In this document: one piece after another, positions 14,044 through 36,965 of the stretch | How positions within the stretch are numbered: the stretch's first letter is position 1 | Layout of the letters: every line of letters starts with the position of its first letter | Virus record (IMG/VR): IMGVR_UViG_3300021979_000001 | Location: 2,948 to 66,947 of that record | Direction: 5' to 3' (one strand) | From: a virus | Taxonomy: Duplodnaviria > Heunggongvirae > Uroviricota > Caudoviricetes | DNA: 64,000 nt | The notes under the pieces: generated by a model | The model's database searches: none | Told to the model about the DNA's origin: nothing | Seen by the model: only the letters and a program-made list of their open reading frames with translations | Translations under genes and position numbers: made by a program

Positions 14044-14096
14044 AATTATCATCTCGGTAAAAAATGAAAGTTCAAATCACATATATTTCAATTATT

Positions 14097-14290: not shown

Positions 14291-14313
14291 ATAATAAGAG
14301 CCATTTGAATAAT

Positions 14314-14550: not shown

Positions 14551-14581
14551 AATTGTTTCACCAAGTAAAAAATAAGTTAAA

Positions 14582-14824
14582 TTATTCACCATCTACGTTG
14601 CCATGACCATTGCCCGTCCCAAAACCATAACTATAACCATACCCATCATCCACACCATACCAGGCACCATCACCATTGCCATAACCCACGTCATATTGAT
14701 TCCCATAACCTTTCCCCGGACTATAATCATCCCCAGGATCATACCCGGCACATGAACCAGAGCCAGAACCATCGGTTATTGGATCGGGTTCATAGCAATA
14801 ATTAAATGCAATCGGTAGATTCAT
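14582..14824 (-). CDS. Gly-X repeat small protein (divergent)
   Basis: N-term MNLPIAFNYCYEPDPITDGSGSG. Confidence 0.55.
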   Translation of the reverse strand: MNLPIAFNYCYEPDPITDGSGSGSCAGYDPGDDYSPGKGYGNQYDVGYGNGDGAWYGVDDGYGYSYGFGTGNGHGNVDGE

Positions 14825-14877
14825 AATTGGTTCACCAATGAGAAAAAATAAGTTAAATCATTCACATTATATTTCAA

Positions 14878-15183
14878 TTATTCATAATTACGCCCAGTGC
14901 CATGCCCATCCCCATACCCAAAACCATCACCATCACTAGACACATAACCATCACCATCAACATAACCAATACCATTGCCAGCCCCATCACCATCACCATC
15001 AACATAACCAATACCATTGCCAGCCCCATCACCCATGCCATAACCTTCGTCATAATCATTCCCATAACCCTGCCCCGGATTATGATAATCCCCAGAATCA
15101 TAACCGGCACCGGAAACGGAACCATCACCATCACTTACTAGATCGGGGTTATTGCAATAATTAAATGTAATTGATGGTTTCAT
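14878..15183 (-). CDS. Gly-X repeat small protein (divergent) with internal 15-aa duplication
   Basis: N-term MKPSITFNYCNNPDLVSDGDG; GDGAGNGIGYVDGDG occurs twice. Confidence 0.55.
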   Translation of the reverse strand: MKPSITFNYCNNPDLVSDGDGSVSGAGYDSGDYHNPGQGYGNDYDEGYGMGDGAGNGIGYVDGDGDGAGNGIGYVDGDGYVSSDGDGFGYGDGHGTGRNYE

Positions 15184-15243
15184 AATTATTTCACTAAATG
15201 GTTAAACCACGTCAAATCGCACAGTTAGATTACAGGTATTGCA

Positions 15244-15444
15244 TCATTCACCCCTATTCCCATCACCACGACCATAACCCTCACCAGAAACAAAACCTTT
15301 ACCTGAACCATTCCCAAATCCATACACATTACCATAAGATATACCAAAACCATCCTCGGTGCCATGATCAGAGCCATGACCAAAACCATAAACATTGTTG
15401 GGTATATCATGGTTTTGGAAATATGATTCAATCGATATATTCAT
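15244..15444 (-). CDS. Gly-X repeat small protein (C-like)
   Basis: likely start MNISIESYFQNHDIPNNVYGFG. Confidence 0.5.
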   Translation of the reverse strand: MNISIESYFQNHDIPNNVYGFGHGSDHGTEDGFGISYGNVYGFGNGSGKGFVSGEGYGRGDGNRGE

Positions 15445-15512
15445 AATTAAATCATTCATTTATTACATCATCAACTGTTACCAGGTCCATTGTCATACCC
15501 GCTTATCGGCAT

Positions 15513-15770
15513 CTATTCAGGTTCACCACTTGATCCATCCCAGTTTCCACGACTCGAACCATTACCAAATCCAAAAGCCGAACAATAACCATTTTTGTGA
15601 ATAAAAATATGTTCATACGTTTTGCCATCACCATAACCATAACCATAACCAGAACCATATCCATAACCATTACCAAATCCAAAAACCGAACCATTATCTG
15701 AAACAATTTCCGAAACAATTTCATTTGGGCTGCTATCATCGCAATATAATAAATTTATCAGTTCATACAT
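15513..15770 (-). CDS. Gly-X repeat small protein (divergent)
   Basis: N-term MYELINLLYCDDSSPNEIVSEIVSDNGSVFGFG. Confidence 0.5.
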   Translation of the reverse strand: MYELINLLYCDDSSPNEIVSEIVSDNGSVFGFGNGYGYGSGYGYGYGDGKTYEHIFIHKNGYCSAFGFGNGSSRGNWDGSSGEPE

Positions 15771-15779
15771 AATTAATAC

Positions 15780-15890
15780 TGACCATCCATCGAACCCTCA
15801 CCAAACCCATGACCATATCCATAAATGTCACCAACATCATCACATTCGCCGCCCCATTTGTATGACAGTAGTTCGTTAGGACGTCATAAT
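15780..15890 (-). pseudogene. array member remnant without start codon, coordinates approximate
   Basis: Gly-X frame ..YKWGGECDDVGDIYGYGHGFGEGSMDGQY-stop with no in-frame ATG. Confidence 0.3.
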
Positions 15891-15989
15891 TAAAATAATA
15901 AAACCCGATTAATATATTAATGATACGGACACCCCAAGTGATAAAAAATGATTTAAATCACTACAACTATAATTCAACTGTTAAGTTCG

Positions 15990-16238
15990 TTAATCCGATC
16001 CATGACCGAAACCAGCACCATATCCAGTCCCAAAACCATCCCCATCACTAGAGCCATGACCATGACCATGACCATCTTTATAGTCTTGACCAGACCCGAC
16101 ACCATTGCCATCCCCATCACCTAGACCATAACCTTTGCCATCCCCTTTACCATAGCCTTCACCATCGCCATCATCATAACTGATTTCCTTTTGATCGGCG
16201 GTATTTATGTAAAAAGATAGGATTACGTATGTGTTCAT
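15990..16238 (-). CDS. Gly-X repeat small protein (divergent)
   Basis: N-term MNTYVILSFYINTADQKEISYDDGDG. Confidence 0.55.
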   Translation of the reverse strand: MNTYVILSFYINTADQKEISYDDGDGEGYGKGDGKGYGLGDGDGNGVGSGQDYKDGHGHGHGSSDGDGFGTGYGAGFGHGSD

Positions 16239-16290
16239 AATATGTCACTCCAAACACAACAATAATAATTCAAAATACACATATTATATT

Positions 16291-16530
16291 TCAATAAGCA
16301 CCGTCACCATAACCATGCCCCCAATGCCCAGTCATATTTGTATCCCCAATATCAAACCCATTCCCATTCCCATTCCCTTTTCCAAAACCAAAACCATAAC
16401 CATCACTATCCCCATTATGATGGACATAACTAAGACTATAACCTTTCCAATTGTCATACCCATCATACCCATCACTATCATCATATTCACAGATATGGAC
16501 ATAATAATACAATATTATGTTAATGTGCAT
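16291..16530 (-). CDS. Gly-X repeat small protein (divergent)
   Basis: likely start MHINIILYYYVHICEYDDSDGYDGYD. Confidence 0.45.
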   Translation of the reverse strand: MHINIILYYYVHICEYDDSDGYDGYDNWKGYSLSYVHHNGDSDGYGFGFGKGNGNGNGFDIGDTNMTGHWGHGYGDGAY

Positions 16531-16578
16531 TACGAGTTCCCACATGTAAATAACATAATCAAACAGTTAATATAATAT

Positions 16579-16839
16579 CTATTTCATGGTCATATAAAAA
16601 TGATCTGTTTCATTACCATCATTGGCACCAGCCCCATGTCCAACACCGTTACTATCACCTAAATCATCACCCGAAGCAGAATCATCCCCCATACCAGAAT
16701 TATTTGTATGTCCAGAACCACTTCCTCTACCATATCCAAACACATGTCCTTTTTTATGTCCATGCGCAAACCCACGACCATAGTGATACCAATTACTATA
16801 TACATCGACACAATAAATTACTTTTATGGGCAATTTCAT
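16579..16839 (-). CDS. Gly-X repeat small protein (divergent)
   Basis: likely start MKLPIKVIYCVDVYSNWYHYGRG. Confidence 0.5.
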   Translation of the reverse strand: MKLPIKVIYCVDVYSNWYHYGRGFAHGHKKGHVFGYGRGSGSGHTNNSGMGDDSASGDDLGDSNGVGHGAGANDGNETDHFYMTMK

Positions 16840-16901
16840 TATTAACATCCAATCAATTAAATAGATAAACCGTAATAATTATAATTATTTCTTACACTAA
16901 T

Positions 16902-17180
16902 TCACCATGATTTTCTGACCCATTTATGCGAGCCGTAACCAATATTATAACTTGACCCATATCCATTTCCCTGTCCATCAGCATAACCATAACCATGCCC
17001 TGCCCCTGAAAGATAACTAACCCCTAACGTTGGGCTTGTATCCCCAACATATGCAGAGCCATCCCCCTGCCCGTCACCTTTAACAGAACCATCCTCATAC
17101 TCCGAACCAGTTCTAGTCCCGGAAAAGTTGTTATAAAGATCGGCATTTCGGTAAAAACACGATTTTATGGTGGGTTTCAT
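16902..17180 (-). CDS. Gly-X repeat small protein (divergent)
   Basis: likely start MKPTIKSCFYRNADLYNNFSG. Confidence 0.5.
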   Translation of the reverse strand: MKPTIKSCFYRNADLYNNFSGTRTGSEYEDGSVKGDGQGDGSAYVGDTSPTLGVSYLSGAGHGYGYADGQGNGYGSSYNIGYGSHKWVRKSW

Positions 17181-17238
17181 ACTTATCACACTTGCAAAAA
17201 GTTGGATTAGTCATAAAATAAACACAATGGTGGCTGCA

Positions 17239-17484
17239 TTACCCGAAACTATCACCGAAATAAAAACCGTAAGCGTGACCACATCCAAGACCCTCACAAT
17301 TACCAGATTTAGCATTTAATCCATAATCCTGACCATGACCGTAAACGGCCCAATATCGAATTACGTAACTTATTTCATAATGAGAACCACTTCCCTGCCC
17401 CTCGCCATAACCACCCCCATTACGAATTAAAGAACCATTACCCGAACGTTTTATGTAATATAAATCTATTGGTATATTTGCCAT
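17239..17484 (-). CDS. Gly-X repeat small protein (divergent)
   Basis: N-term MANIPIDLYYIKRSGNGSLIRNGGGYG. Confidence 0.45.
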   Translation of the reverse strand: MANIPIDLYYIKRSGNGSLIRNGGGYGEGQGSGSHYEISYVIRYWAVYGHGQDYGLNAKSGNCEGLGCGHAYGFYFGDSFG

Positions 17485-17533
17485 TTGACTTCGCCAAGTA
17501 AAAATGGATATATGGAGATAATCATTTCATTGT

Positions 17534-17728
17534 TCACTCTGCCATAGCACCATGCCCATAGCCATAACCACCATCAAACACGTTCCCATACCCATTACTA
17601 TCCCCATCCTCATACCCATCGCTAGAGTCAGACCCGTATCCATACCCGGTTCCATCACTATTGCCATATCGATAGCTATTATTATGTTGATCAACTGTGT
17701 AATATAGTAGTGTTATAGGTAGTTTCAT
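17534..17728 (-). CDS. Gly-X repeat small protein (divergent)
   Basis: N-term MKLPITLLYYTVDQHNNSYRYG. Confidence 0.55.
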   Translation of the reverse strand: MKLPITLLYYTVDQHNNSYRYGNSDGTGYGYGSDSSDGYEDGDSNGYGNVFDGGYGYGHGAMAE

Positions 17729-17826
17729 TGTTTTATTACCAAGTTGGGTTCAACCGAAATAATACTGGTAAGTATATCAATCATACTCATATATCATTTA
17801 ATAATATAAGGGATAATGTAGTTTGG

Positions 17827-18213
17827 TTAGTCCTGTCCTAACGCATCTGACGAAAACGGATGTGAATTATCCATATGCTGACTGCATAACCATTCAATTC
17901 CAGTAATGGAGTAAACACCATTAACTGCGGGCGCGCCGCAATAATGACATTTTTTGTGTGCCATTTCGGACGTTCCGTCGTGTTTAGCACGTTTTTTACT
18001 GAACTTGGACTTTGTAAAATGCCCCGCTTTCATCTGGGTAACGGATTTACCCATTGCTCGGTAATTTGCCCCATTAATTCCTGTTGTTTTGGTTTGGTGT
18101 TTTGCTTTACACCCTTTACAACAATACTGCGCCCATCCTCGATTGCGATCTGCAATTCTTGCTTCAAAATCAGTTTTACACCATAAGCAAGAAAATGTTC
18201 CAGTGGCCGCCAT
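17827..18213 (-). CDS. Cys-rich putative zinc-ribbon protein
   Basis: several CxxC pairs (CLWC, CCKGCK, CHYCG); locally GC-richer; interrupts the array before its last member. Confidence 0.4.
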   Translation of the reverse strand: MAATGTFSCLWCKTDFEARIADRNRGWAQYCCKGCKAKHQTKTTGINGANYRAMGKSVTQMKAGHFTKSKFSKKRAKHDGTSEMAHKKCHYCGAPAVNGVYSITGIEWLCSQHMDNSHPFSSDALGQD

Positions 18214-18348
18214 AGGTCAAATCTCCATAATGGGGGGTAAAAATCATAAACAATTGTAGTATTTTTGGTTATATAAAGCAAAGATTAAAATTATTGTTTT
18301 TTGATGATTGGAATGGCATATAACACGGTGTCATCAATAACTTATTTC

Positions 18349-18594
18349 TCAATCAACCAAGTTTGCAATACCAAAACCATAACCGTTACTATCGCCTTCG
18401 GTATTACCTGGACCATCCCCATAACCTTCCCCATTACTTACACTATTACTAAATCCAAAACCATGCCCTGAACCATTACCAAAACTACGACCACAACCAC
18501 CCCCGTATTCTGATATAGCAATATCACCTACGGAATCATCATCACCTGGATAAAAATCGACGATATGATATGATAGTATGACAGTTTTCATCAT
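18349..18594 (-). CDS. Gly-X repeat small protein (outlying, divergent member)
   Basis: N-term MMKTVILSYHIVDFYPGDDDSVGD followed by a GxG-rich core. Confidence 0.5.
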   Translation of the reverse strand: MMKTVILSYHIVDFYPGDDDSVGDIAISEYGGGCGRSFGNGSGHGFGFSNSVSNGEGYGDGPGNTEGDSNGYGFGIANLVD

Positions 18595-21578: not shown

Positions 21579-22667
21579 TTACTTGAACTGATCACCAAAC
21601 GGATCAAAATCTTTTCCGCATGTTTTGGCACATACTTTTAATTTACCTGCGGCACAACTTGGTTTTGACCATGTGCTTTCGATGTAATTGAACATTGGCC
21701 CGGCTAAAATCTTTTCAACTGAAACCATGATACCATTGATTGCATCTTTGCCACCAACATGCTCGATTATTTTCCAAAGAGGCGATGATTTTGGTTCCAA
21801 ATACCATACATAAAGCTGGTTGGCGGTCCAACAGCATGGAAATACCAAACCTTCTGCCGATATATATATTGACCCTTCGGTATCAGTTTTGCAGGTGATC
21901 GGGGTATTATCCAAATAATTTTGCAAGCTACCATGCTTCGCAATTAATGATTGTTCCTGTTGCAAAGCATTGTTTTGGTATTGCGGATCAATTGGTTTTT
22001 CCAGGACGTGTTTTACGGTCCCATCCTTACCCATAACATCTTGCGAATCTTTGCCTTTTAGTTGGTTATTTGAGAAGAACCGCCCGGTTTTTTTAACCTG
22101 GAAGTGAATAAAACCCATTTCTGCGGCAAGGGTGCGGGCATCGTCCACCTGGTGTTCATTGTGTTTGAAAACAATATAATCCCAAATTGCGCGGCCACCA
22201 GATTGAATAAATGATTCCACATTACGCATAATAACATCGAACCGGCATCCTTGACGATACAGATGATTTGTATCATCAAGACCATCAATACCAAACCGAA
22301 CACTGTCACCTTTTTTTGATAACAGTTTACCGAGTTCTCCCCACCATTCGGGATTTTTCGCGCTACCATTGGTATTCATACCAAGGGTAATATTTGGGTT
22401 CATTTCTCGGAAATATTTCATTACGTCCAAGGTATCTTGGGCTGCAATTGGGTCGCCAAAATTACCACACATGTAAATTCGATTAAGACTTAGTAAAAAT
22501 TCCTTTGTGAAGATTTTTTTACAATCATCTAACGTCAATTCGGTAATCGGCAGGGATGGGTTTACCCATGTTCCAAGGACATTTCGTCCACATTGCGGGC
22601 ATGATGCATTGCATCTGGATGTGATTTCCAAATGCACAGTTTTAATACGAGAATATTCAAATGCCAT
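21579..22667 (-). CDS. radical SAM protein with C-terminal Cys-rich (SPASM/twitch-like) region
   Basis: CNASCPQC (CxxxCxxC) near the N-terminus; C-terminal PCCW...CAAGKLKVCAKTC; paralog of the gene at 50881..51966. Confidence 0.65.
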   Translation of the reverse strand: MAFEYSRIKTVHLEITSRCNASCPQCGRNVLGTWVNPSLPITELTLDDCKKIFTKEFLLSLNRIYMCGNFGDPIAAQDTLDVMKYFREMNPNITLGMNTNGSAKNPEWWGELGKLLSKKGDSVRFGIDGLDDTNHLYRQGCRFDVIMRNVESFIQSGGRAIWDYIVFKHNEHQVDDARTLAAEMGFIHFQVKKTGRFFSNNQLKGKDSQDVMGKDGTVKHVLEKPIDPQYQNNALQQEQSLIAKHGSLQNYLDNTPITCKTDTEGSIYISAEGLVFPCCWTANQLYVWYLEPKSSPLWKIIEHVGGKDAINGIMVSVEKILAGPMFNYIESTWSKPSCAAGKLKVCAKTCGKDFDPFGDQFK

Positions 22668-26297: not shown

Positions 26298-26870
26298 ATG
26301 GAAAAACAAATGTCTAATGCAAATCTTTTTGGTTCTAAACCCAGTGATCGCGTTGCTGTGTTTTTCGACGGGGCGAACCTGTTTGCCAGCACTCGGGCCT
26401 TGGACGTTCACTTGGATTATTCCAAGCTGACCGAAGCCCTGGGCACGGGATGCAACATGATGCGGATGTATTACTACACCGCCCTGCCGGATGGTGATGC
26501 TCAATGCGCGGTTCGTCCGCTTGTGGATTGGCTCGACTATAACGGCTATACCATGGTCACGAAGCCAACCAAGGAATTCACCGACTCCGCAACTGGTTTG
26601 CGGAAAATCAAAGGTAACATGGACATCGAAATTGCAATTGATGTGATGGAAATGGCACCGCACCTTGACCATGTGATCCTGTTTTCCGGTGATGGCGATT
26701 TCCGGCGTCTGGTTGAGGCGGTTCAACGCAAAGGGGTGCGCGTTACTGTTGTATCGACCGTCAAATCGAACCCATCGATGATTGCGGATGAACTTCGTCG
26801 CCAGGCCGACAAATTCGTCGAACTTGCGGACATCATGTCGTATGTCGTGCGGGATGTGCGGGAGAAATAA
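26298..26870 (+). CDS. NYN/LabA-like domain protein (putative RNA nuclease)
   Basis: VAVFFDGANL ... IDVMEMAPHLDHVILFSGDGDFRRLVEAVQRKGVRVTVV is typical of the LabA/NYN fold; clearly GC-richer than the flanks. Confidence 0.65.
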   Translation: MEKQMSNANLFGSKPSDRVAVFFDGANLFASTRALDVHLDYSKLTEALGTGCNMMRMYYYTALPDGDAQCAVRPLVDWLDYNGYTMVTKPTKEFTDSATGLRKIKGNMDIEIAIDVMEMAPHLDHVILFSGDGDFRRLVEAVQRKGVRVTVVSTVKSNPSMIADELRRQADKFVELADIMSYVVRDVREK

Positions 26871-26935: not shown

Positions 26936-27033
26936 TAAATAAACTCAATTACCATTGGGTTATAATTACGCGATGGATTGCTGATTTAAAAATAGACTTT
27001 TAAAGTAATCATCAAGTATTATAACTCAAATTA

Positions 27034-27771
27034 TTGAGTTATTTTGTTATGAATACTTTATCGATAAATGAACTAAGAAATGATTTAAAAGAATCAACAA
27101 ATAATATGTCCTGGACCGTAAGTAATATTATCACCGATGATGGTCTTTTACTACCACCAACGTCCGATTCTAAAGAAATATCGAAGTTATTAGAGCGACA
27201 AGCGGAAATACATTTGAGCAAGATTGCGGATAAGTATGGGTATGTTTTTGAAACAAGTAGTAGACAAAATACATACCCGGACGGAACATTAACAAAATAT
27301 GATGCTGGCAGAATACTCCATAGAATAGCAATAGATGCAAAAAGCACGTTTGAAAAACCATCCATGAATTTGACACTTGGTAGCTACACATCATTTTTAT
27401 TGAACGACAATAAAAGCATTACATATCCATATTCGACATATGATGACCATTGGGTTATGATTTTTACATATCGTCGAACAGAGGATGGTTCTTATGATTC
27501 AGTCAGATGGTATTTAACTGAAAAAGCCCGCATCACCGGGTTGGTGGCGGGTAGCGGCAACACAAAAAATATAGGGAGTGTTCGTTTCAGAAAAGTAGAT
27601 GATTTAACATCAATTAATGGGCCATTTGCCCGTTTCAAAAACATGAAAGGGGCTTCTGATCACTATTGGCGCAACTATGATCGTTTGCGCAAAGAAATCA
27701 AAAGCCCTGGCGATTTGATAATGCACCCGGAATTTGTTCAATTCACAAATCTGGAACGTAGTAATTGTTGA
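27034..27771 (+). CDS. hypothetical protein (245 aa)
   Basis: intact ORF. Confidence 0.4.
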   Translation: MSYFVMNTLSINELRNDLKESTNNMSWTVSNIITDDGLLLPPTSDSKEISKLLERQAEIHLSKIADKYGYVFETSSRQNTYPDGTLTKYDAGRILHRIAIDAKSTFEKPSMNLTLGSYTSFLLNDNKSITYPYSTYDDHWVMIFTYRRTEDGSYDSVRWYLTEKARITGLVAGSGNTKNIGSVRFRKVDDLTSINGPFARFKNMKGASDHYWRNYDRLRKEIKSPGDLIMHPEFVQFTNLERSNC

Positions 27772-28828
27772 TTTTGTGTTGTAAAGCTGGAATTTTTGAT
27801 GATATTCCTTCGGTGGAAAGAATAATCAATCGATCTGCGGTCACGTAACTTTCGCACTTTGCATTGGTAAATGTCCCTAATTCGTTCCCATATCCGATTA
27901 GGATACCGCAATTAAGATTTAAAATATTGTTTGCGGTTTGTTTCCAGTCAATAACCGTGCGGTTAATGGCAACAGAGATCACACTATCTCCTTTGGCCGT
28001 GAATAAATCTTCTATGATTTCTTCGGTTCCAGGCGCGACCATCGCCCGAACCGCCATTGCTGGATAACTGCGCATGGGACGAATAACCGATGTTGCACCG
28101 GCAGCAATGATACGTTTTCGATTATGATCTGATACGCATTCAGCGATGATGGGAACGGATGGGTTTTGTTCACGAACGTGGTATACCGTGGAGAACGTGA
28201 TTGAGTCATCATCATTGCTGCCACTAGGTGCGATAACAAAGATCGCACGGCATTTGGTCAAACCGACTTGTTCGGACATGCCAGGACTGTTGATGTTTCC
28301 ATGATTGAAAATTGTTCGATTGTCAAAATCGCACAGGTTGGTCGTCCATTGGTCAGTGAGGATATTAATTGCGATTTTATTATATTCTGGAATATCACGA
28401 ATTTCCCGGATGAATTCCTGAAAATATTTTACCGCATTTGGTCCATTCGGTGACCCGATAACTAAAATGTGATCGTTCAATTTCCAGTTCCATTTCCCGG
28501 TTTTTATTGCATTTGATCGAAATTCGCGCATATCTTGATAAATGTCAATCATTCTAGCAAAAATTGCCAATGCTGGAATAAACAATACCATAACGCTTAT
28601 TATTCGACCGATAGGGGTTGATGCGGACAAATCCCCATATCCAATTGTAGTGATACTGGTTGAAGCCAACCATAACGCATCACCGATGGTCATATTTTCA
28701 TATATGACCATCGTTGGAACAAATATCCCGATACATAGTAATAAAATTGCACCTAATTCAAAGAACTCGCGTTTTGTCGTCTTGTTTCGAATTAGTTGAC
28801 GATTGCGCCAAAAAAACAAAAAGTGCAT
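27743..28828 (-). CDS. two-TM potassium channel with C-terminal RCK/TrkA-N-like domain
   Basis: TTIGYGD selectivity filter flanked by two hydrophobic helices; ILVIGSPNGPNAV Rossmann-like motif after the pore. Confidence 0.7.
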   Translation of the reverse strand: MHFLFFWRNRQLIRNKTTKREFFELGAILLLCIGIFVPTMVIYENMTIGDALWLASTSITTIGYGDLSASTPIGRIISVMVLFIPALAIFARMIDIYQDMREFRSNAIKTGKWNWKLNDHILVIGSPNGPNAVKYFQEFIREIRDIPEYNKIAINILTDQWTTNLCDFDNRTIFNHGNINSPGMSEQVGLTKCRAIFVIAPSGSNDDDSITFSTVYHVREQNPSVPIIAECVSDHNRKRIIAAGATSVIRPMRSYPAMAVRAMVAPGTEEIIEDLFTAKGDSVISVAINRTVIDWKQTANNILNLNCGILIGYGNELGTFTNAKCESYVTADRLIILSTEGISSKIPALQHKINNYYVPDL

Positions 28829-28855
28829 ATCATTCTCAATCGGGGTAAATGATGA

Positions 28856-29215
28856 TCACGCGGTTTTGGTAGCTTTGTCCTTTGCGGACTGCTCTTTCCG
28901 ATGACGGTTCATGATCAAATGATCTGCCAACATACGGGCCTGGGTCCGTTCTTCCATCATGGTGCGAGCAAGCGATGATACCCGCTTCAAATCTCGCTGT
29001 GACAGAACTACATGTGCAATCATGTCATTCCGGGCACATGTCGCAATACAGTTTTTAAGCCACCGACTTTTTTCTGAAATTTGACGATATTTTAACCGCC
29101 AAATAACAATAAAATCATGGTATGATTTTTTATCGGTAATGATCGTTTTGATGTTAAAATCAACAACATTGATTTCGGGTTCGTTTACTTTAATCTGTTG
29201 CTGCATTTTCGTCAC
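28856..29215 (-). CDS. hypothetical protein (119 aa)
   Basis: intact ORF. Confidence 0.35.
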   Translation of the reverse strand: MTKMQQQIKVNEPEINVVDFNIKTIITDKKSYHDFIVIWRLKYRQISEKSRWLKNCIATCARNDMIAHVVLSQRDLKRVSSLARTMMEERTQARMLADHLIMNRHRKEQSAKDKATKTA

Positions 29216-29684
29216 CTTCTTGGCTAAGTTTGATGATTTCTTTTAGACGCCGTTCAACTTCGGAGTGTATCATCACGTTGATTTTATGCGGAAGTTTCGT
29301 TTCTACTGTTTTTGTTACGACATCCATTAATTGTTGCTCAAAGTCACACAACAACGCTGCAACTTTAAATTGCACCGACGCAATTAAATCATGGTCTGTG
29401 ATGAATGTTTCACATGCGGTTTCGATTGTGCGTTGCAATCGAGTCATAAATTGTGAATTTGCAGGTATGGATACACTGCTATGGTCTGCCAATATATCAC
29501 CAAAATGAGATTCAAATATATTTTTGGCAATACTTTCCACGCGGGGCTTTAATTGACTATCCGTCAATATTGACATGTGCTGCGACACCGCAGTCTTAAT
29601 TACTTTTTCGGTGATTGCAATCTCACAATCTGGGTTTTGTTCCAGAATTTGTTGCAATTGATCCGATCCTAAATAAATTTTCAT
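29190..29684 (-). CDS. hypothetical protein
   Basis: intact ORF; start chosen at MKIYLGSD. Confidence 0.35.
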   Translation of the reverse strand: MKIYLGSDQLQQILEQNPDCEIAITEKVIKTAVSQHMSILTDSQLKPRVESIAKNIFESHFGDILADHSSVSIPANSQFMTRLQRTIETACETFITDHDLIASVQFKVAALLCDFEQQLMDVVTKTVETKLPHKINVMIHSEVERRLKEIIKLSQEGDENAATD

Positions 29685-29784
29685 AACAACAATCACCAAC
29701 TATATTACATAAGATATAAAAACAATAGCACGATATTTTATCATACACAAGCATGAATATTATCGTGCTATTGTTTTTATTTAA

Positions 29785-30141
29785 TTATTTCACGATTTGG
29801 TAATCGATGGTATTAGCCTCGGCAAGACTAATCCAAAAACGTTGTTTGATGATATGTTCCAATGGGGATGACATAACTCGGAATGTCACGGAATCATATT
29901 TTGGTAGATTATTCCGAATATAGATTCGATCAATCGTCAACGCGGTTTCTTGTGGTATAACCACATTCATGAAGGACGGGGTTTTCCTGTTTTCATAATA
30001 ATCATCCAGGATGTCCTCATATTTTGTTCCTGCAATTTTCGCGGAAAATTTCGCATTTCGGCTATCGACAAAATTAATTGAGCATGATAGCGGTTTAAGT
30101 AATAGTAACGTTGTGCGCAAAGGTGGGATGAATAGTTTCAT
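29785..30141 (-). CDS. hypothetical protein
   Basis: intact ORF; start uncertain. Confidence 0.3.
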   Translation of the reverse strand: MKLFIPPLRTTLLLLKPLSCSINFVDSRNAKFSAKIAGTKYEDILDDYYENRKTPSFMNVVIPQETALTIDRIYIRNNLPKYDSVTFRVMSSPLEHIIKQRFWISLAEANTIDYQIVK

Positions 30142-30586
30142 ATGCCATCTCCATTGGTTTAAACAAGGATACACCAATCATCAACGATAATAGTGTAATA
30201 ATCGCCAAAATAAGGAATACAACAAAAATCAGACTGGAATTATCCCCGTGTGTTGCAAAATTTTCTTTCATAAACCCAAGGGAATACATAATAACTTCAT
30301 ATAAGAAGAACAGGCATAGCGCCCCAATAGCATATCGAACTGCCTGCAAAATCATCGGAGATAATGCGAGATTAACAATCAATATCCACTGAATTGCGGA
30401 ACCTAGTTGTGAGTCAATCATGTTCTCTATTGGAATATTCTGTTCTTTTGCTACATCAGTTAAAATTTGATTTATCTGATTAGACAATGTATCCGCATGT
30501 GCGATATTTGTTATTGCAAAAACACAAGCGGCAATTAGCAGAACCGACCCTATCGTATTTTTGAATGTCATTTCACTTACGCCCAA
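30095..30586 (-). CDS. membrane protein (several TM helices)
   Basis: hydrophobic segments LLIAACVFAITNIA, ALCLFFLYEVIMYSLGF and IFVVFLILAIITLLSLMIGV. Confidence 0.4.
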   Translation of the reverse strand: MGVSEMTFKNTIGSVLLIAACVFAITNIAHADTLSNQINQILTDVAKEQNIPIENMIDSQLGSAIQWILIVNLALSPMILQAVRYAIGALCLFFLYEVIMYSLGFMKENFATHGDNSSLIFVVFLILAIITLLSLMIGVSLFKPMEMAYETIHPTFAHNVTIT

Positions 30587-31289: not shown

Positions 31290-32687
31290 TTATTCGCCGG
31301 TGAATGGTTTCGACGAGTGACGGGTTGTCAGCTTATCGAGTGCCCCAAGGCTGGTTACAATGTCCAACGACGTTGGTGCCGCAACGGATGAACCACCACC
31401 ATAATAAATATCCGGCATCGACACTGTAATGTCTTTTAGATTTGGATAAATAATTTGGGCGGTATCGCGTGCCAATTCTGCCATATAAATATCTTTGGCA
31501 TCTTGTAACGCCTTGTATTTGGCACGGGCAACGTCGGCTTCGGCCAGGCCAGTTTCACGAATAGATTCTGCCTTGAATTTTGCGGCCTGGGCCGTCGCAT
31601 TTTGAATATCTTTATCCGCAACTGCCATTTCAAGTTCCTTCTGTTTTTTCAGAAGGGCAATTTGCTTTTCCTTGTTTTGTCGAACTTTTTCCAGTTCCGC
31701 AGTTTGCCGTTCCACTTCCACCTGCTGAACAGCCCGGATAATAGCCAATTCTTTTTCTTTTTGTGCTTTTTGCACATCCCGCGCCTTCTCAATTTCCATA
31801 TTGAGAGCGATGGTTTTTGCTTCGGTGCGAGCGGTATCTTGTTCCTGCAACGAAGTGATACGTTTTGCGACCAACAGCTTTTTATCCCGCAGCAACGTTG
31901 TCAACTGGGGATCGGGTTCGGGACGACCGATAGTAACCTGCCGAACTGAAATCCCATACAGTTCAAGCGGGTTTGAAATCCGCAATTCGGCCCCGGCAGC
32001 ATTTGTGGTGATCACGTTTTTCCAAACTAGTTGGTTTCGGCTTTCCAACTTGTTTGCATCGGAATTCTCCGAATTAACGGCAGCAAAGTCGGTTTGCTGG
32101 ACTTCAACTTGTTTCCGTGTGGTTTGATACAAACCATAGGTTAACTGATTTTCAAGTTTTACCTTGAAATCGTTTAGGCCCCCTTGGAAAAATTCTTCCC
32201 CGGTATATTGCGTCCCTGTGACCACCGTGACGTTCTTGGCATTTTTAACCATCAAAGAATCAATGAGGTTGTCTTTGCCACGAAACTCCGAATGCATCAG
32301 AAGAATTTTCTGAACATCAGATGACAATTTAAACCGGAAGGTGGCCGGAATATCTGCAATATAAGTATCAGCAAATTGCACTGATACTGGGTCAAGCTGC
32401 CGCGTTGACGACGCTTCTTCACTGGCATCTTGATTGCCGAATGATATGACCACTGCTTGTGGATATTCGTAGATGGTAGTAAAGAATGGGATTTTAGCAT
32501 GAACCCCAGGCTCGGTATATACGATCAACCGGCCCAAAAGGGTATCTTGCAGGACATAAGTGATGCCTGCTGCGGTGGTGAAAAATGATGAAAACCCGAT
32601 GATTAAGGCAAAAATGGCAAAAATGCCGCCAATAATCCACCGTTTGATAGATTGTAAAATCATGTCATGTTCTTCTGTTTGGTCCAT
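31290..32687 (-). CDS. SPFH/band-7 (flotillin-like) membrane protein
   Basis: N-terminal TM, SPFH-like domain, then a long Ala/Lys/Glu/Gln-rich coiled coil (KAQKEKELAIIRAVQQVEVERQTAELEKVRQNKEKQIALLKKQKELE). Confidence 0.55.
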   Translation of the reverse strand: MDQTEEHDMILQSIKRWIIGGIFAIFALIIGFSSFFTTAAGITYVLQDTLLGRLIVYTEPGVHAKIPFFTTIYEYPQAVVISFGNQDASEEASSTRQLDPVSVQFADTYIADIPATFRFKLSSDVQKILLMHSEFRGKDNLIDSLMVKNAKNVTVVTGTQYTGEEFFQGGLNDFKVKLENQLTYGLYQTTRKQVEVQQTDFAAVNSENSDANKLESRNQLVWKNVITTNAAGAELRISNPLELYGISVRQVTIGRPEPDPQLTTLLRDKKLLVAKRITSLQEQDTARTEAKTIALNMEIEKARDVQKAQKEKELAIIRAVQQVEVERQTAELEKVRQNKEKQIALLKKQKELEMAVADKDIQNATAQAAKFKAESIRETGLAEADVARAKYKALQDAKDIYMAELARDTAQIIYPNLKDITVSMPDIYYGGGSSVAAPTSLDIVTSLGALDKLTTRHSSKPFTGE

Positions 32688-34440: not shown

Positions 34441-34878
34441 CTATAACACCAACCGCGCCATAACGGATTCAGGCTTGCTTTCAAACCAAATACGATAATA
34501 CGTCCGGTTCGTTTTGTGTTGCGCGACTTCTTTACATAAAAATTTATACTGACATAGATTGTGCAATTTAGTGTTTAATTCATTCATCGTATATGTATCG
34601 TGGTTTTCATTAATCGTTACCGAATGACACAACCAACGTGGTTTTATGTAGTTTTTATTGATCACCGCAAAGATCATAGAACATAACAAATATCCGGTGA
34701 AATAACCTACCGTCATTACAAACCAGATTATATCAATATAATCTAAAAACCATACGATTCCAGTCATTCCTGCAAAAAGACCAATACTGATTACACTCAA
34801 TTCAGGAATAATCCGCTGGATTTTAATTACATCTATAATCAAAACATAACTCCTTATTGCGCCATTGATAAAAATCAA
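34441..34878 (-). CDS. membrane protein, tandem paralog family member 1 of 5
   Basis: N-terminal TM helices; C-terminal region shares the W-L-x-H/Y motif with the neighbouring paralogs. Confidence 0.4.
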   Translation of the reverse strand: MIFINGAIRSYVLIIDVIKIQRIIPELSVISIGLFAGMTGIVWFLDYIDIIWFVMTVGYFTGYLLCSMIFAVINKNYIKPRWLCHSVTINENHDTYTMNELNTKLHNLCQYKFLCKEVAQHKTNRTYYRIWFESKPESVMARLVL

Positions 34879-35371
34879 TGGGTTGTGGTAATTGATGATC
34901 GCATATTAGCGAACATAGTAAAGCATCCTCGTATTTCATAAAAATCACATTAATGTGTTTATAATACAGCATAATTATCTCACGGGTATTACTGTCTATT
35001 TCGCATATGTGTTCCCAGCGTGCCATAACTCGATATTTAGATGAATATTCTAGTTGACAAATTCTAGAAATCAATTGATGTGTTTCATTATAATTAACGT
35101 TGCCAATATTAATCAAATATGCAGTGCGTGGTAACCAATGTTTATGGTATTTTGTATTATGAACTTTGCGTAAAATCAATATTTGCACATAGAATAATGA
35201 ACACAAGGAAATGAATAATATTAATGCCCCGGTTGATATATCCGGGCTTTCTGGTAAAATTGAAATTGACAAATATACACATGCAACCACGCCATATATT
35301 ATATACATGGCGGCGAAAAATAACCCACTACGATTTGGGAAATATATTTCTTGAAACTGTTGTATCGTCAT
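34823..35371 (-). CDS. membrane protein, tandem paralog family member 2 of 5
   Basis: TIQQFQEIYFP N-terminus, TM helices, HWLPRTAYLIN motif. Confidence 0.45.
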   Translation of the reverse strand: MTIQQFQEIYFPNRSGLFFAAMYIIYGVVACVYLSISILPESPDISTGALILFISLCSLFYVQILILRKVHNTKYHKHWLPRTAYLINIGNVNYNETHQLISRICQLEYSSKYRVMARWEHICEIDSNTREIIMLYYKHINVIFMKYEDALLCSLICDHQLPQPIDFYQWRNKELCFDYRCN

Positions 35372-35373
35372 TA

Positions 35374-35946
35374 TTATGCAGTCATATCCAGTATAGTTAA
35401 ATGCCGTTGGTTATGTTTAATTTTACGTATATCCCCATTCCACGTCAATGCGCATAATGTCGCGTCATTAATCGACGCAAAAAGAACGATGCTTTTACCA
35501 TCTAATGTCGTCAACACCGAATGCATAAAATGACTTCGATAGCAATAATTCATCGTTGAATTGGCAGCAAGCCAATCTTGACCTTCGGGTGTCAATATTG
35601 GCAATTCCGATATTACCGCATATATGTTCCAGGGCATCCATTGTCGGTATGATAACTGGGTATCCTCCATGGCACTACGGATGGTGATAAACGTAAATGC
35701 GAACACCACGAACCAAACAATACCAGCAAAAATGTTGCTTAATAATATCACTATGTCAATTGTTGCCATACTGATTGCAAACGTGGCGAAATACACGTTG
35801 GGAATCAAAATCTGTAGCCATATAATCAGGGTAGATTTCATGTTTATGTTTTCCACAAATGGTATTTTGCTGGGTTTTAGGGTTTTGGGTGGGGGGATCA
35901 AAAACTGGTTATATTGTTCGATGCCGGATGTATTTTGCGTTCCCAT
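35374..35946 (-). CDS. membrane protein, tandem paralog family member 3 of 5
   Basis: EQYNQFLIPP N-terminus, TM helices, QWMPWNIYAV motif, INDATLCAL. Confidence 0.45.
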   Translation of the reverse strand: MGTQNTSGIEQYNQFLIPPPKTLKPSKIPFVENINMKSTLIIWLQILIPNVYFATFAISMATIDIVILLSNIFAGIVWFVVFAFTFITIRSAMEDTQLSYRQWMPWNIYAVISELPILTPEGQDWLAANSTMNYCYRSHFMHSVLTTLDGKSIVLFASINDATLCALTWNGDIRKIKHNQRHLTILDMTA

Positions 35947-36443
35947 TCAAACTCGAAACCAATTATAACGATGTTTTTGCGTTTTTTATATGTTGCTATT
36001 TGGCCGAATCTTAACGCAAATATGGTAGCATCATTATGGTTTGCAAACTGAACATGAAAATCTTCCCCATTAGCCATCCCTAATTTATAGTTATCAAGGC
36101 ATTCGGCATCACACCATTCATTAATTTCTTTTCTTAATAGATGATTTGGCAAATTAAACACTGCCTCGTAAACGTAATGAGGCAACCAGTTCTTTAACTT
36201 GGTTGATTTGTGTTCAACATTGATCAAAACCCAGATATATGAAAAAATAACGATCAATAGTGAAATGATATTAATCACCAATGAAATCAAGATTGATTTA
36301 TCATTGATGTTGTTATTGTTTTTAAACAACAGATTGCATATTAGTAGACAGTCACCTACCATCAAAAAATAATACAAATATGAAAATTTATTGAATGGAA
36401 AAAATGCCTGGAACCATTGTTTCGTTGTCATGATATTTTTCAC
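35898..36443 (-). CDS. membrane protein, tandem paralog family member 4 of 5
   Basis: TKQWFQAFFP N-terminus, TM helices, NWLPHYVYEAV motif, HNDATIFAL. Confidence 0.45.
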   Translation of the reverse strand: MKNIMTTKQWFQAFFPFNKFSYLYYFLMVGDCLLICNLLFKNNNNINDKSILISLVINIISLLIVIFSYIWVLINVEHKSTKLKNWLPHYVYEAVFNLPNHLLRKEINEWCDAECLDNYKLGMANGEDFHVQFANHNDATIFALRFGQIATYKKRKNIVIIGFEFEWERKIHPASNNITSF

Positions 36444-36470
36444 TCCGATGAAATTATTACGGGGGTTATA

Positions 36471-36965
36471 TCAACTAAACTGGTATATAATATTATAGTC
36501 AACAATATCTTTTCGCGTAACGGTTTCCATATGGTCGCCGAACGCAGAAGCATATCGGGTAGCATCGTTTGAACTACCAATCATAAAATGCACCTCATAC
36601 CAGTAATCGGAGTCAAAATCATTTAAACTGTTTTTAATCATATTAGCGGTAAACGTTCCATTGCAGAATTCTTCGCACCATTCGAAACGTTGGATCAATG
36701 TGCCATAAATCGTGTCACGGTCACCCCGCAATATCACTTTGAACACATAGAACCGGTGCGGGAGCCAGTGCATCATGCTCTTTCCAAAATTGTCATATTT
36801 TCGGGTTTGGTAGGAAAGAAAGAACATGATTGGCATGAACAACCATACTAAGGTTGTGGTAACGGAGATAATATATCCACCGGCACAAAACAATAAAAGA
36901 TCGGTTACTACCACATTCATTGTTGGGTATGATAACGATAACATTTCACGTAATTTCATGTCCAA
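36471..36965 (-). CDS. membrane protein, tandem paralog family member 5 of 5
   Basis: TM helices, HWLPHRFYVF motif, SNDATRYAS. Confidence 0.45.
   Translation of the reverse strand: MDMKLREMLSLSYPTMNVVVTDLLLFCAGGYIISVTTTLVWLFMPIMFFLSYQTRKYDNFGKSMMHWLPHRFYVFKVILRGDRDTIYGTLIQRFEWCEEFCNGTFTANMIKNSLNDFDSDYWYEVHFMIGSSNDATRYASAFGDHMETVTRKDIVDYNIIYQFS

What the first reader, a model, noticed from the sequence alone, without database searches (positions are those of the whole stretch)
27743..28828. Phage-encoded K+ channel with an RCK gating domain
It has a canonical TTIGYGD selectivity filter between two TM helices. Unlike the minimal Kcv channels of chloroviruses, it also carries a roughly 230-aa cytoplasmic domain with a Rossmann-like ILVIGSPNG motif (TrkA-N/RCK). 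A ligand-gated viral K+ channel is unusual. It could depolarise the host membrane or regulate turgor during infection.
Basis: partly seen in the sequence, partly recalled or inferred. Interest (0 to 1): 0.55.

Follow-up and report, generated by a model that had tools for sequence, protein, structure and literature searches.

The report
RCK-gated potassium channel in jumbo phage
A roughly 457-kb bacteriophage genome carries an intact, full-length potassium channel with a built-in cytoplasmic sensor domain, taken from a common bacterial family; this is rare in phages but not unique, and what it does during infection is untested.

Summary
ORF 27743-28828 (minus strand, 361 aa) has two TM helices, a pore helix, a single TTIGYGD filter and a cytoplasmic RCK domain of about 250 aa. 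Pfam Ion_trans_2 and Slo-like_RCK both pass their cut-offs. The AlphaFold2 model is confident (pLDDT 92.9) and its best solved matches are full-length MthK, GsuK and Slo channels.

The surrounding genes are jumbo-phage genes. The DnaB helicase is 52% identical to those of Atu_ph07 and Phosso, and the exact protein lies on a 457,165-bp contig.

The protein is a divergent member (37% identity or less) of a large proteobacterial family. It keeps every family-invariant residue. In 4 of 7 bacterial loci inspected, that family sits in PspA/DUF350/spermine-synthase envelope-stress operons, an association already published.

The ligand is unknown. Only one residue of the MthK Ca2+ triad is kept, and there is no GxGxxG nucleotide motif.

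Phage channels with an RCK domain are rare but recur. Four of 80 IMG/VR loci have one, two of them on contigs above 450 kb. One cultured roseophage, DSS3_VP1, has an unremarked example.

Verdict: a real, probably functional, new member of a known kind, of moderate interest.

The parts
27743..28828 (-). Complete channel gene (361 aa plus stop): 2TM K+ pore fused to an RCK domain.
   Evidence: ORF list. Pfam Ion_trans_2 and Slo-like_RCK both pass their cut-offs. AF2 pLDDT 92.9. Best Foldseek match in the PDB is MthK 6oly, E 2.6e-17. The identical protein occurs on 5 contigs, including one of 457,165 bp.
28697..28777 (-). TM1 (outer helix), residues 18-44, preceded by a basic N-terminus (RNRQLIRNKTTKR) that fits a cytoplasmic N-end.
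   Evidence: AF2 helix 18-44. Hydropathy peak at 25-43.
28652..28687 (-). Pore helix, residues 48-59 (GDALWLASTSI; W53 is family-invariant).
   Evidence: AF2 helix 48-59. W53 is invariant in alignments A2 and A3.
28631..28651 (-). Selectivity filter TTIGYGD, residues 60-66.
   Evidence: Coordinates. T61, G63, G65 and D66 are invariant and Y64 nearly invariant across 60 family members. The stretch aligns to TVGYGD of MthK.
28502..28615 (-). TM2 (inner helix), residues 72-109, continuing as one long helix towards the RCK domain. The hinge region reads IPA where MthK has GIG.
   Evidence: AF2 helix 72-109. Alignments.
28481..28498 (-). Linker GKWNWK (residues 111-116) between TM2 and the RCK domain, carrying the family signature G-x-W-x-W.
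   Evidence: G111, W113 and W115 are invariant in A3. Coordinates.
28034..28480 (-). RCK N-lobe (Rossmann-like beta-alpha-beta), residues about 117-265. It includes strand betaA HILVIG, invariant D208 and invariant E230 (equivalent to MthK E210).
   Evidence: Pfam Slo-like_RCK covers 117-228 and TrkA_N covers 176-251. Strands and helices from AF2. The family profile aligns to MthK residues 20-306 at E about 2e-27.
27767..27985 (-). RCK C-terminal lobe, residues 282-354 (beta-sheet plus two helices).
   Evidence: AF2 elements E282-294, H295-304, E309-338 and H343-354. The alignment to the MthK C-lobe extends to residue 306.
31290..32687 (-). Context gene: a 465-aa membrane-anchored SPFH/Band-7 protein in the same minus-strand gene run, 2.5 kb upstream of the channel.
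   Evidence: Pfam Band_7 E 4.4e-14. N-terminal TM at 18-36. Homologues in Vibrio and Pseudoalteromonas phages.
27034..27771 (+). Context gene: a convergent EcoRV-like type II restriction endonuclease homologue. Its 3' end overlaps the channel's 3' end by 29 nt.
   Evidence: Pfam Endonuc-EcoRV E 2.3e-28. PADLOC REase_II E 2.7e-32.

Best explanation
The gene encodes an MthK-type potassium channel. Four subunits would each contribute TM1, a pore helix, a TTIGYGD filter and TM2 to a K+-selective pore. The RCK domain that follows TM2 would form a cytoplasmic gating assembly that opens the inner-helix gate when a cytoplasmic ligand binds.

The gene belongs to a jumbo phage of about 457 kb from the Atu_ph07/Phosso/Rak2-like supergroup. 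[quoted passage not shown] In bacteria that family is typically encoded in PspA (YjfJ-type)/DUF350/polyamine envelope-stress operons.

Made during infection and inserted into the host inner membrane, the channel would give the phage a regulated K+ conductance. This would clamp membrane potential towards E_K and allow electrophoretic K+ re-uptake or release. The likely benefit is stable ion content, turgor and membrane energetics over a long infection cycle.

Shown here: the architecture, the fold, family membership, conservation of family-invariant residues, the phage context, and recurrence in other phages. Inferred: tetramer assembly, K+ conduction, ligand gating, expression, and the physiological role. 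The ligand is unknown. It is probably not Ca2+ bound at the MthK site, and probably not a dinucleotide bound through a GxGxxG loop.
For: - Architecture and fold: Pfam Ion_trans_2 plus Slo-like_RCK. AF2 pLDDT 92.9 and pTM 0.84, with TM1, pore helix, filter, TM2, then a two-lobed RCK domain.
- Structural matches: the top Foldseek PDB hits are full-length MthK (E 2.6e-17), then GsuK, Slo2.2 and Slo1. The family profile aligns to MthK residues 20-306 at E about 2e-27.
- Family size and origin: 910 cluster representatives score E<1e-30. Named members come from Marinobacter, Oceanobacter, Pseudomonadales, Thiodiazotropha and Alphaproteobacteria.
- Conservation: the phage protein is 37% identical or less to any member, yet it keeps all 23 positions that are invariant in A3.
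- Composition: gene GC is 0.407 and GC3 is 0.395, matching the window (0.39). Bacterial homologues match their own loci, which range from 0.38 to 0.59. This fits a long-resident gene.
- Phage context: DnaB is 52% identical to Atu_ph07 and Phosso. RNR, exonuclease, primase, a virion protein, PAAR and an endolysin-like gene are present. The exact protein lies on a 457,165-bp contig, and 9 kb of identical context recurs in two other assemblies.
- Bacterial operon link: 4 of 7 inspected loci show PspA_IM30, DUF350, Spermine_synth and DUF2170 or YbjN next to the channel. The literature describes the same association (PMC11237479).
- Recurrence in phages: L003, L004 (469.6 kb, next to a PspA gene), L005 (545 kb) and L017. 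DSS3_VP1 has a channel next to a glutathionylspermidine-synthase homologue.
- Independent captures: the phage copies do not cluster together. Each has a different best bacterial hit.
Against: - There is no functional or expression data.
- Only one sequence variant exists, so selection within the phage lineage cannot be measured.
- An MthK-style ring of eight RCK domains needs four extra soluble domains, made in MthK from the internal start M107. Here M93 and M100 have no Shine-Dalgarno-like sequence upstream and are not conserved in the family, so the stoichiometry of the gating assembly is open.
- The hinge glycine of the inner helix is replaced (IPA instead of GIG).
- None of the bacterial operon partners (PspA, DUF350, spermine synthase, DUF2170, or the conserved 215-aa and 114-aa proteins) has a detectable homologue among the window neighbours. 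The operon-based functional inference therefore transfers only indirectly.
- No capsid or terminase gene lies inside the window itself.
Confidence: 0.75

Rival explanations
1. Neutral passenger. The gene is a recently picked-up host gene with no role in infection, and may be decaying.
For: Jumbo phages carry many host-like genes. No expression data exist. The bacterial operon partners are absent.
Against: The ORF is intact and keeps every family-invariant residue. It is only 37% identical or less to any of about 5.8 billion database proteins, and its GC and GC3 match the phage. This points to an old, maintained gene, not a recent pick-up. Equivalent genes were acquired independently by at least four other phage lineages.
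Confidence: 0.1
2. Lysis-timing or exclusion effector. The channel is opened late, or on superinfection, to collapse or shift the membrane potential. This would trigger holins or block entry of competing phage DNA, not maintain homeostasis.
For: The gene ends a long minus-strand run that includes PAAR (a structural, probably late gene) and many small membrane proteins. Membrane depolarisation is known to trigger holins (established knowledge). Greiner et al. note that T4 and T5 infection involves changes in K+ conductance (PMC6163359).
Against: A K+-selective pore clamps the potential at E_K and does not collapse it. The regulated RCK domain and the link between the bacterial family and membrane-protective Psp systems point to homeostasis. 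No holin or spanin was identified next to the gene. The promoter and terminator scans found no more sites than shuffled sequence, so operon structure is unproven.
Confidence: 0.12
3. Not a phage gene. The contig is a bacterial chromosome, a megaplasmid or a misassembly, and the channel is an ordinary cellular gene.
For: No major capsid, portal or terminase gene lies within the 64-kb window. Close bacterial family members exist. One close homologue, P0134, sits on a plasmid-like contig with ParA, ParB and RepB.
Against: DnaB, the virion structural protein and the Band-7 protein all have their best annotated matches in phages, mostly jumbo phages: Atu_ph07, Phosso, PA5oct, Rak2-like and Vibrio phages. 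The window is dense with ORFans, has no tRNA, rRNA or housekeeping genes, and its PHROG hits are typical of phage replication modules. The same 9-kb context assembles identically in independent samples. A scan of 185,579 species genomes found no close relative.
Confidence: 0.04
4. A Ca2+-gated channel working exactly like MthK, or a nucleotide-gated one (NAD/ATP) like KtrA, TrkA or GsuK.
For: MthK, GsuK and BK are the closest solved structures. E230 aligns with MthK E210, and the preceding loop is acidic (SNDDDS).
Against: In the family-MthK alignment, MthK D184 has no fixed acidic counterpart in the phage protein; it falls next to an alignment gap, at about S204 or N205. E212 aligns with V232, which is V in the family consensus. 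The glycine loop reads IGSPNGPNA, not GxGxxG, and the residue ending beta2 is T, not the D or E that binds ribose. TrkA_N scores below its Pfam cut-off.
Confidence: 0.15

Closest known systems
MthK, the Ca2+-gated K+ channel of Methanothermobacter thermautotrophicus (PDB 1lnq, 6oly, 6u68)
   Same: Both have a 2TM pore with a T-x-G-Y-G-D filter, followed directly by one RCK domain with N- and C-lobes, at a similar length (336 vs 361 aa). MthK is the best match by sequence profile (E about 2e-27 over residues 20-306) and by fold (E 2.6e-17).
   Different: Identity is only 17-20%. Two of the three residues of MthK Ca2+ site 1 are not conserved. There is no evident internal start for a soluble RCK copy. 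The G-x-W-x-W linker is specific to this family. The hinge reads IPA instead of GIG.
[quoted passage not shown] 2024, PMC11237479)
   Same: This is the family the phage protein belongs to by sequence: 30-37% identity over the full length, with all invariant residues kept. Four of seven inspected bacterial members lie beside PspA_IM30, DUF350, Spermine_synth and DUF2170.
   Different: The phage gene has none of these partners nearby. Only an unrelated SPFH/Band-7 membrane protein lies 2.5 kb upstream. The host is a virus, not a cell.
Previously catalogued phage K+ channels (Greiner et al. 2018, PMC6163359): mycobacteriophage Myrna, vibriophages, Acinetobacter phage ME3, Lactobacillus phage PLE
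   Same: All are phage-encoded proteins with a G(Y/F)GD filter and at least 2 TM helices.
   Different: Those proteins are 117-259 aa, and the paper mentions no RCK or TrkA domain (0 occurrences). In GenBank phages, tblastn with this protein finds only pore-region matches. The one longer match is a mislabelled Salmonella contig.
Roseophage DSS3_VP1 CDS DSS3VP1_00108 (QGH74676.1, 328 aa; UniProt A0A7S5FRH1)
   Same: It is the only full-length match in the viral structure library (E 9.8e-12, 354 aligned columns). It has a 2TM pore plus a cytoplasmic RCK-like domain, comes from a cultured lytic phage, and lies next to a polyamine-related gene (GSP_synth, E 1.5e-131).
   Different: It belongs to a different subfamily. 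Sequence similarity is limited to the pore and the first RCK strand (BLASTP E 4e-6 over 74 aa), and Pfam detects only Ion_trans_2. The phage is a 75-kb siphovirus-type phage, not a jumbo phage. GenBank annotates the CDS as hypothetical, and the genome paper does not discuss it.
Chlorovirus Kcv and other phycodnavirus K+ channels
   Same: Both are virus-encoded, tetrameric, K+-selective pore modules with the same filter signature.
   Different: Kcv-type channels are 79-156 aa pore-only proteins. Kcv sits in an internal virion membrane and acts at entry (established knowledge, not a tool result). A tailed phage has no membrane, and this protein carries a regulatory domain of about 250 aa.

Membership tests
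K+ channel pore superfamily (Pfam Ion_trans_2; KcsA/MthK-type 2TM pore) | Two transmembrane helices flanking a re-entrant pore helix | tested here: met
   AF2 gives helices 18-44, 48-59 and 72-109 at pLDDT above 90. Hydropathy peaks at 25-43 and 76-94. Ion_trans_2 E 2.6e-11, above its cut-off.
K+ channel pore superfamily (Pfam Ion_trans_2; KcsA/MthK-type 2TM pore) | Selectivity-filter signature T-[TV]-[IV]-G-[YF]-G-D | tested here: met
   TTIGYGD at residues 60-66, a single occurrence in the window. It aligns with the MthK filter.
K+ channel pore superfamily (Pfam Ion_trans_2; KcsA/MthK-type 2TM pore) | Tetramer that conducts K+ selectively | not testable with these tools
   Only a monomer could be modelled. 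Testing needs a multimer prediction, electrophysiology or a complementation assay.
RCK-regulated K+ channels (MthK, GsuK, Slo type) | RCK domain (Rossmann-like N-lobe plus C-lobe) fused directly after the inner helix | tested here: met
   Slo-like_RCK scores 26.9 bits against a cut-off of 24. The top 50 Foldseek PDB hits are MthK, GsuK, Slo1 and Slo2. The profile aligns through MthK residue 306.
RCK-regulated K+ channels (MthK, GsuK, Slo type) | MthK Ca2+ site 1 (D184, E210, E212) | tested here: not met
   Only E210 is kept (as E230). E212 aligns with V232. D184 has no fixed acidic counterpart.
RCK-regulated K+ channels (MthK, GsuK, Slo type) | Eight-RCK gating ring, made from an internal start (MthK M107) or from tandem RCK domains | tested here: inconclusive
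   The protein has a single RCK domain. M93 and M100 lack an upstream SD-like sequence and are not conserved in the family. Some relatives (P0002, P0103, P0118; 600-657 aa) do have two RCK domains.
KTN/TrkA-N nucleotide-binding RCK domains (KtrA, TrkA) | GxGxxG loop after beta1 and an acidic residue after beta2 for NAD/ATP binding | tested here: not met
   The loop reads IGSPNGPNA, with P127 family-invariant. The position after beta2 is T in the family consensus. TrkA_N scores 22.3 bits, below its cut-off of 23.8.
PspA/polyamine-operon K+ channel family of Proteobacteria (Ravi et al. 2024) | Full-length sequence membership, including family-invariant residues | tested here: met
   Identity of 30-37% over about 320-340 aa to many members. 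All 23 invariant A3 columns are kept, including G111, W113, W115, P127, D208, E230, R239 and P251.
PspA/polyamine-operon K+ channel family of Proteobacteria (Ravi et al. 2024) | Gene neighbourhood with PspA_IM30, DUF350, spermine-synthase-like and CesT/Tir-like genes | tested here: not met
   No Pfam or BLASTP match between 17 window neighbours and the bacterial operon proteins. The neighbourhood is present in bacterial loci L084, L087, L088 and L090, and PspA is present in phage contig L004.
Minimal viral K+ channels (Kcv, Kesv and similar) | Pore-only protein of about 80-160 aa without regulatory domains | tested here: not met
   The protein is 361 aa with a cytoplasmic domain of about 250 aa.
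Jumbo tailed phage (Atu_ph07/Phosso/Rak2-like supergroup) as carrier | Genome above 200 kb, with replication and virion genes whose nearest relatives are jumbo phages | tested here: met
   The contig is 457,165 bp. DnaB is 52% identical to Atu_ph07 and Phosso. A virion structural protein matches Atu_ph07, Phosso and Rak2-like phages. RNR, primase, exonuclease and PAAR are present. Capsid and terminase genes lie outside the window and were not seen.

The most novel reading that the evidence does not exclude
Large phages repeatedly capture pieces of the bacterial PspA/polyamine envelope-stress module. Examples are the channel alone (this window), PspA plus channel (L004), and channel plus a glutathionylspermidine-synthase homologue (DSS3_VP1). 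They would use a metabolite-gated K+ channel to keep the infected cell's membrane potential, K+ content and turgor stable through a long infection. The RCK domain would sense a stress- or polyamine-linked cytoplasmic ligand that no solved RCK domain binds.
Probability: 0.2. Interest if true: 0.6.

Novelty: new member of a known kind. Interest (0 to 1): 0.4.

Why it matters
Virus-encoded K+ channels have mostly been studied as minimal pore modules. I found no functional study of any phage K+ channel in the searchable literature. In the four searches aimed at this question, no paper describes a phage channel with an RCK domain.

This gene shows that a phage can encode a complete regulated channel. 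It recurs in the very largest phages, and it belongs to a bacterial family tied to the Psp envelope-stress and polyamine systems. That gives a concrete, testable handle on two questions. The first is how long-cycle jumbo phages manage host ion balance and membrane energetics. The second is what ligand gates this large, uncharacterised RCK family.

The gene is still an acquisition from a common cellular family, so it extends known biology but does not overturn it.

Tried and rejected
- Megablast of 27000-30000 against 50,697 GenBank phages gave no match.
- tblastn of the channel against the same set gave nothing at E<=1e-3. At E<=10 it gave only pore-region hits, plus one mislabelled Salmonella contig.
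- The alternative-genetic-code idea for the ORF-poor first 18 kb was rejected. No stop reassignment opens long ORFs. The region instead holds about 55 short Gly/Tyr-rich genes.
The single-protein scan found no relative.
- The promoter and terminator scan found no more sites than shuffled sequence, so it says nothing about operon structure.
- NCBIfam has no family for the protein; the only hit is a 37-residue pore match far below its cut-off. PADLOC shows no defence-system association for the channel or the Band-7 gene.
- BLASTP of 17 window neighbours against the bacterial operon partners (PspA, DUF350, spermine synthase, DUF2170, YbjN, DUF4178, and the conserved 215-aa and 114-aa proteins) found nothing significant.
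- A search for sequence variants to estimate selection failed because L001 and L002 are 100% identical to the window.
- A single 'phage clade' of RCK channels was rejected. The phage copies rank 38th to 263rd among each other's hits.
- The jumbo-phage comparative review (PMC7824862) does not mention potassium or ion channels. The DSS3_VP1 genome paper does not mention its channel.
Full report
**1. The observation**

The window holds an ATG-initiated ORF of 361 codons on the minus strand at 27743-28828. JGI and Logan assemblies called the same 361-aa gene independently.

TTIGYGD is residues 60-66 (28631-28651) and ILVIGSPNG is residues 121-129 (28442-28468). The full filter signature T[TV][IV]G[YF]GD occurs once in all six frames. 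The bare G[YF]GD tetrapeptide occurs 58 times because of an unrelated Gly/Tyr-rich gene array, so only the long motif in its structural setting carries information.

Pfam gives the following:
- Ion_trans_2: E 2.6e-11, 43.7 bits, cut-off 22.5.
- Slo-like_RCK: E 4e-6, 26.9 bits, cut-off 24.
- TrkA_N: 22.3 bits, just under its cut-off of 23.8.

The start codon follows the upstream gene's stop by 27 nt and has a weak GAGA motif upstream.

**2. Structure**

I built an alignment of 60 family members (A2). AlphaFold2 on it gave a confident monomer, with mean pLDDT 92.9, pTM 0.84 and no segment below 50. The elements are:
- TM1, residues 18-44.
- Pore helix, residues 48-59.
- Extended filter, residues 60-66.
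- A long inner helix, residues 72-109.
- A beta-alpha-beta lobe starting with strand 120-124.
- A C-terminal beta-rich lobe, residues 282-354.

Foldseek against the PDB returns full-length MthK first (6oly, E 2.6e-17). GsuK, Slo2.2 and Slo1 follow. TM-scores are modest (0.4-0.55) and rmsd is large, as expected when a two-domain monomer is compared with chains from different gating states.

A profile of the 12 closest relatives (A3) aligns to MthK residues 20-306 at E about 2e-27. This covers the pore and both RCK lobes.

**3. What the sensor domain can and cannot bind**

In the family-MthK alignment (with A3), only one residue of MthK Ca2+ site 1 survives:
- E210 is conserved as the family-invariant E230.
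- E212 corresponds to V232, which is V in the family consensus.
- D184 falls beside an alignment gap with no fixed acidic residue. The loop SNDDDS is acidic, and D208 is invariant and aligns with MthK D188.

The loop after the first strand reads IGSPNGPNA, with an invariant proline, not GxGxxG. The residue ending beta2 is T, not the ribose-binding D or E. 'Rossmann-like' is correct as a fold description, but nucleotide binding of the KtrA/TrkA kind is not supported.

The ligand is unknown. MthK needs four extra soluble RCK copies, made from an internal start at M107. Here M93 and M100 have no Shine-Dalgarno-like sequence upstream and are not conserved in the family. Some relatives carry two RCK domains in tandem (P0002, 600 aa; P0103; P0118). 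The stoichiometry of the gating assembly is therefore open.

**4. The carrier is a jumbo phage**

The exact protein sits on a 457,165-bp contig. Two shorter contigs from other samples are 100% identical to the window over 9,073 and 3,261 bp.

Within the window, PHROG and Pfam searches find:
- a DnaB-like helicase and a primase;
- an exonuclease;
- a class I RNR, with a large subunit in two ORFs plus a small subunit;
- a virion structural protein and a PAAR protein;
- a glucosaminidase-type endolysin-like protein.

The helicase is 52% identical to those of Agrobacterium phage Atu_ph07 (490 kb) and Sinorhizobium phage Phosso (469 kb). It is about 50% identical to those of PA5oct-like phages. The virion protein matches Atu_ph07, Phosso, Vibrio phage 2.275.O and Rak2-like coliphages.

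There are no tRNA genes or cellular housekeeping genes. The channel gene's GC (0.407) and GC3 (0.395) match the rest of the window. Capsid and terminase genes are outside the window, which is the one gap in this argument.

**5. Which family it belongs to**

An exhaustive profile search of 1.84 billion cluster representatives found 28,333 proteins at E<=0.001. Of these, 7,134 scored E<=1e-10 and 910 scored E<=1e-30. Most of the listed best hits are 340-390 aa and match over the full length.

Named members are 'potassium channel family protein' from Marinobacter, Oceanobacter, Saccharospirillaceae, Pseudomonadales, a Thiodiazotropha symbiont, Desertibaculum and other Alphaproteobacteria.

The phage protein is at most 37% identical to any of them (P0134). 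It still keeps all 23 columns that are invariant in A3. These include the post-TM2 G-x-W-x-W linker, P127, D208, E230, R239, the V-x-x-P-x-R-x-x-P stretch, G267 and E269. This is the pattern expected of a functional, long-diverged copy.

**6. Genomic context of the bacterial relatives**

I inspected seven bacterial loci. In four of them the channel lies in one transcriptional direction with PspA_IM30, DUF350, a spermine-synthase-like protein and DUF2170 or YbjN/DUF4178. The four are L084, L087 (Marinobacter lacisalsi), L088 and L090, the last also with AdoMet decarboxylase. The other three loci (L083, L089, L091) lack this arrangement.

This is the operon class described by Ravi et al. 2024. 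[quoted passage not shown] They also note variants in which the dyad is replaced by a Band-7 protein (PMC11237479).

In the phage window none of these partners is detectable next to the channel. The minus-strand run that ends with the channel is nevertheless rich in membrane proteins:
- a TM-anchored SPFH/Band-7 protein (31290-32687);
- a multi-TM protein (30095-30586);
- five proteins with two TM helices each (34441-36965).

**7. Other phages**

Among 50,697 GenBank phage records, tblastn finds only pore-region matches. These are Listeria, Lactobacillus, Vibrio, Aeromonas and Pseudomonas phages annotated as 'Kef-type K+ transporter' or 'ion transporter'. The single match that extends into an RCK domain is a mislabelled Salmonella contig.

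In IMG/VR, 181 contigs encode relatives of the pore. Of the 80 best loci, 70 have a pore only, 6 have a pore plus a partial RCK, and 4 have a pore plus RCK. The four are:
- L003: a 20.9-kb contig with a T4-type DNA polymerase and DnaB nearby.
- L004: a 469,617-bp contig where the gene immediately upstream is PspA/IM30, E 1.3e-17. This PspA is homologous to the bacterial operon PspA.
- L005: a 545,322-bp contig.
- L017: a 22.2-kb contig.

The viral structure library has exactly one full-length match, a 328-aa protein of the cultured roseophage DSS3_VP1 (E 9.8e-12). GenBank annotates it as hypothetical, and it lies directly upstream of a glutathionylspermidine-synthase homologue (GSP_synth, E 1.5e-131). 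The genome paper does not mention it.

The phage copies are not each other's closest relatives. Each has a different best bacterial hit. This suggests repeated independent capture.

**8. Mechanism**

Shown: a canonical K+ pore fused to an RCK domain, in a phage.

Inferred from established knowledge of MthK, GsuK and BK channels: four subunits form the pore, and ligand binding to the RCK assembly pulls the inner helices open.

Inferred for the biology: the protein inserts into the host inner membrane with its N-terminus inside (it has a basic N-terminus) and provides a gated K+ conductance. Bacterial membrane potential is usually more negative than E_K. Opening such a channel would therefore allow electrophoretic K+ uptake and pull the potential towards E_K. 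This is how some bacterial RCK channels act as K+ uptake routes (established knowledge, not tested here).

A phage with a genome of about 457 kb and a long replication cycle could use this to restore K+ lost at DNA entry and to steady turgor and membrane energetics. A role in lysis timing or superinfection exclusion cannot be excluded.

**9. Novelty and score**

Phage K+ channels are already catalogued (PMC6163359). The bacterial family and its Psp/polyamine association are published. At least five other phage genomes or contigs carry channels that have an RCK domain.

I found nothing on phage channels with an RCK domain in the literature I could search. No phage RCK channel has been discussed, and their enrichment in contigs above 450 kb and their link to Psp/polyamine genes have not been noted.

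I rate this a new member of a known kind, with interest 0.4. The finding is real, well supported and experimentally approachable, but it is a gene capture from an abundant cellular family.

Noticed in passing
window 48-18594, minus strand: About 55 tandem small genes (64-107 aa) fill this stretch. Each has a conserved N-terminus of about 20 aa (variants MNTSIELYYCVNSHLTNDDF, MVTIYNLYYSIPLITNDETYG, MNLPINQYFCIHADDHET, MKPYINQSFYINIYxPETYHG). A Gly (28%), Tyr (11%) and Asp (10%)-rich tail follows. The array explains the GC skew of -0.32 to -0.51 and the absence of long ORFs, and it contains 300-330-nt higher-order repeats. Pfam gives only sub-threshold low-complexity hits. The function is unknown; RiPP-like precursors or structural Gly/Tyr-rich proteins are possibilities. 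The array takes up about 4% of the genome.
   Followed up: partly
window 21579-22667 (-) and 50881-51966 (-): Two radical-SAM ORFs of about 361 aa hit the same PHROG (phrog_21308) and Pfam Radical_SAM only, with no SPASM domain detected. One lies 3 kb from the Gly/Tyr-rich gene array. A link to that array is speculative.
   Followed up: no
window 43934-45673 (+) and 45818-47092 (+): The class I ribonucleotide reductase large subunit is split into two ORFs separated by 144 nt. They match PHROG 84 positions 62-497 and 488-794. The C-terminal ~70 residues (473-541) of the first ORF hit unrelated helicase and head-protein PHROGs. This could be an intron, an intein remnant or a genuinely split gene.
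   Followed up: no
window 26298-26870 (+) and 27034-27771 (+): A NYN-family nuclease (E 4e-36) and an EcoRV-like type II restriction endonuclease homologue (E 2.3e-28) lie side by side. They are convergent with the channel gene, and the endonuclease 3' end overlaps the channel 3' end by 29 nt. No methyltransferase was seen next to them.
   Followed up: partly
window 34441-36965 (-): Five consecutive ORFs of 145-190 aa each have two predicted TM helices. Several share a C-terminal 'HWLP(R/H)' motif, which suggests a paralogous membrane-protein family. Pfam and PHROG annotate none of them.
   Followed up: no
L004 7159-8828 (IMGVR_UViG_3300028840_006907, 469.6 kb): A huge-phage contig encodes a PspA/IM30 homologue (E 1.3e-17) immediately upstream of its own pore-plus-RCK K+ channel. 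This mirrors the bacterial PspA-channel operons.
   Followed up: partly
L093 22586-24745 (roseophage DSS3_VP1, MN602266 72586-74745): A cultured 75-kb lytic roseophage carries a 328-aa K+ channel with an RCK-like cytoplasmic domain, annotated as hypothetical. It lies directly upstream of a glutathionylspermidine-synthase homologue. The pair resembles part of the bacterial PspA/polyamine operon and offers a tractable experimental system.
   Followed up: partly
L027 7512-8255 (IMGVR_UViG_3300020172_001601, 340 kb): Another large viral contig encodes a 247-aa voltage-gated-type K+ channel (Ion_trans E 2.1e-24, with an S4-like RxxRxxR stretch). Large phages therefore carry several different classes of K+ channel.
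   Followed up: no
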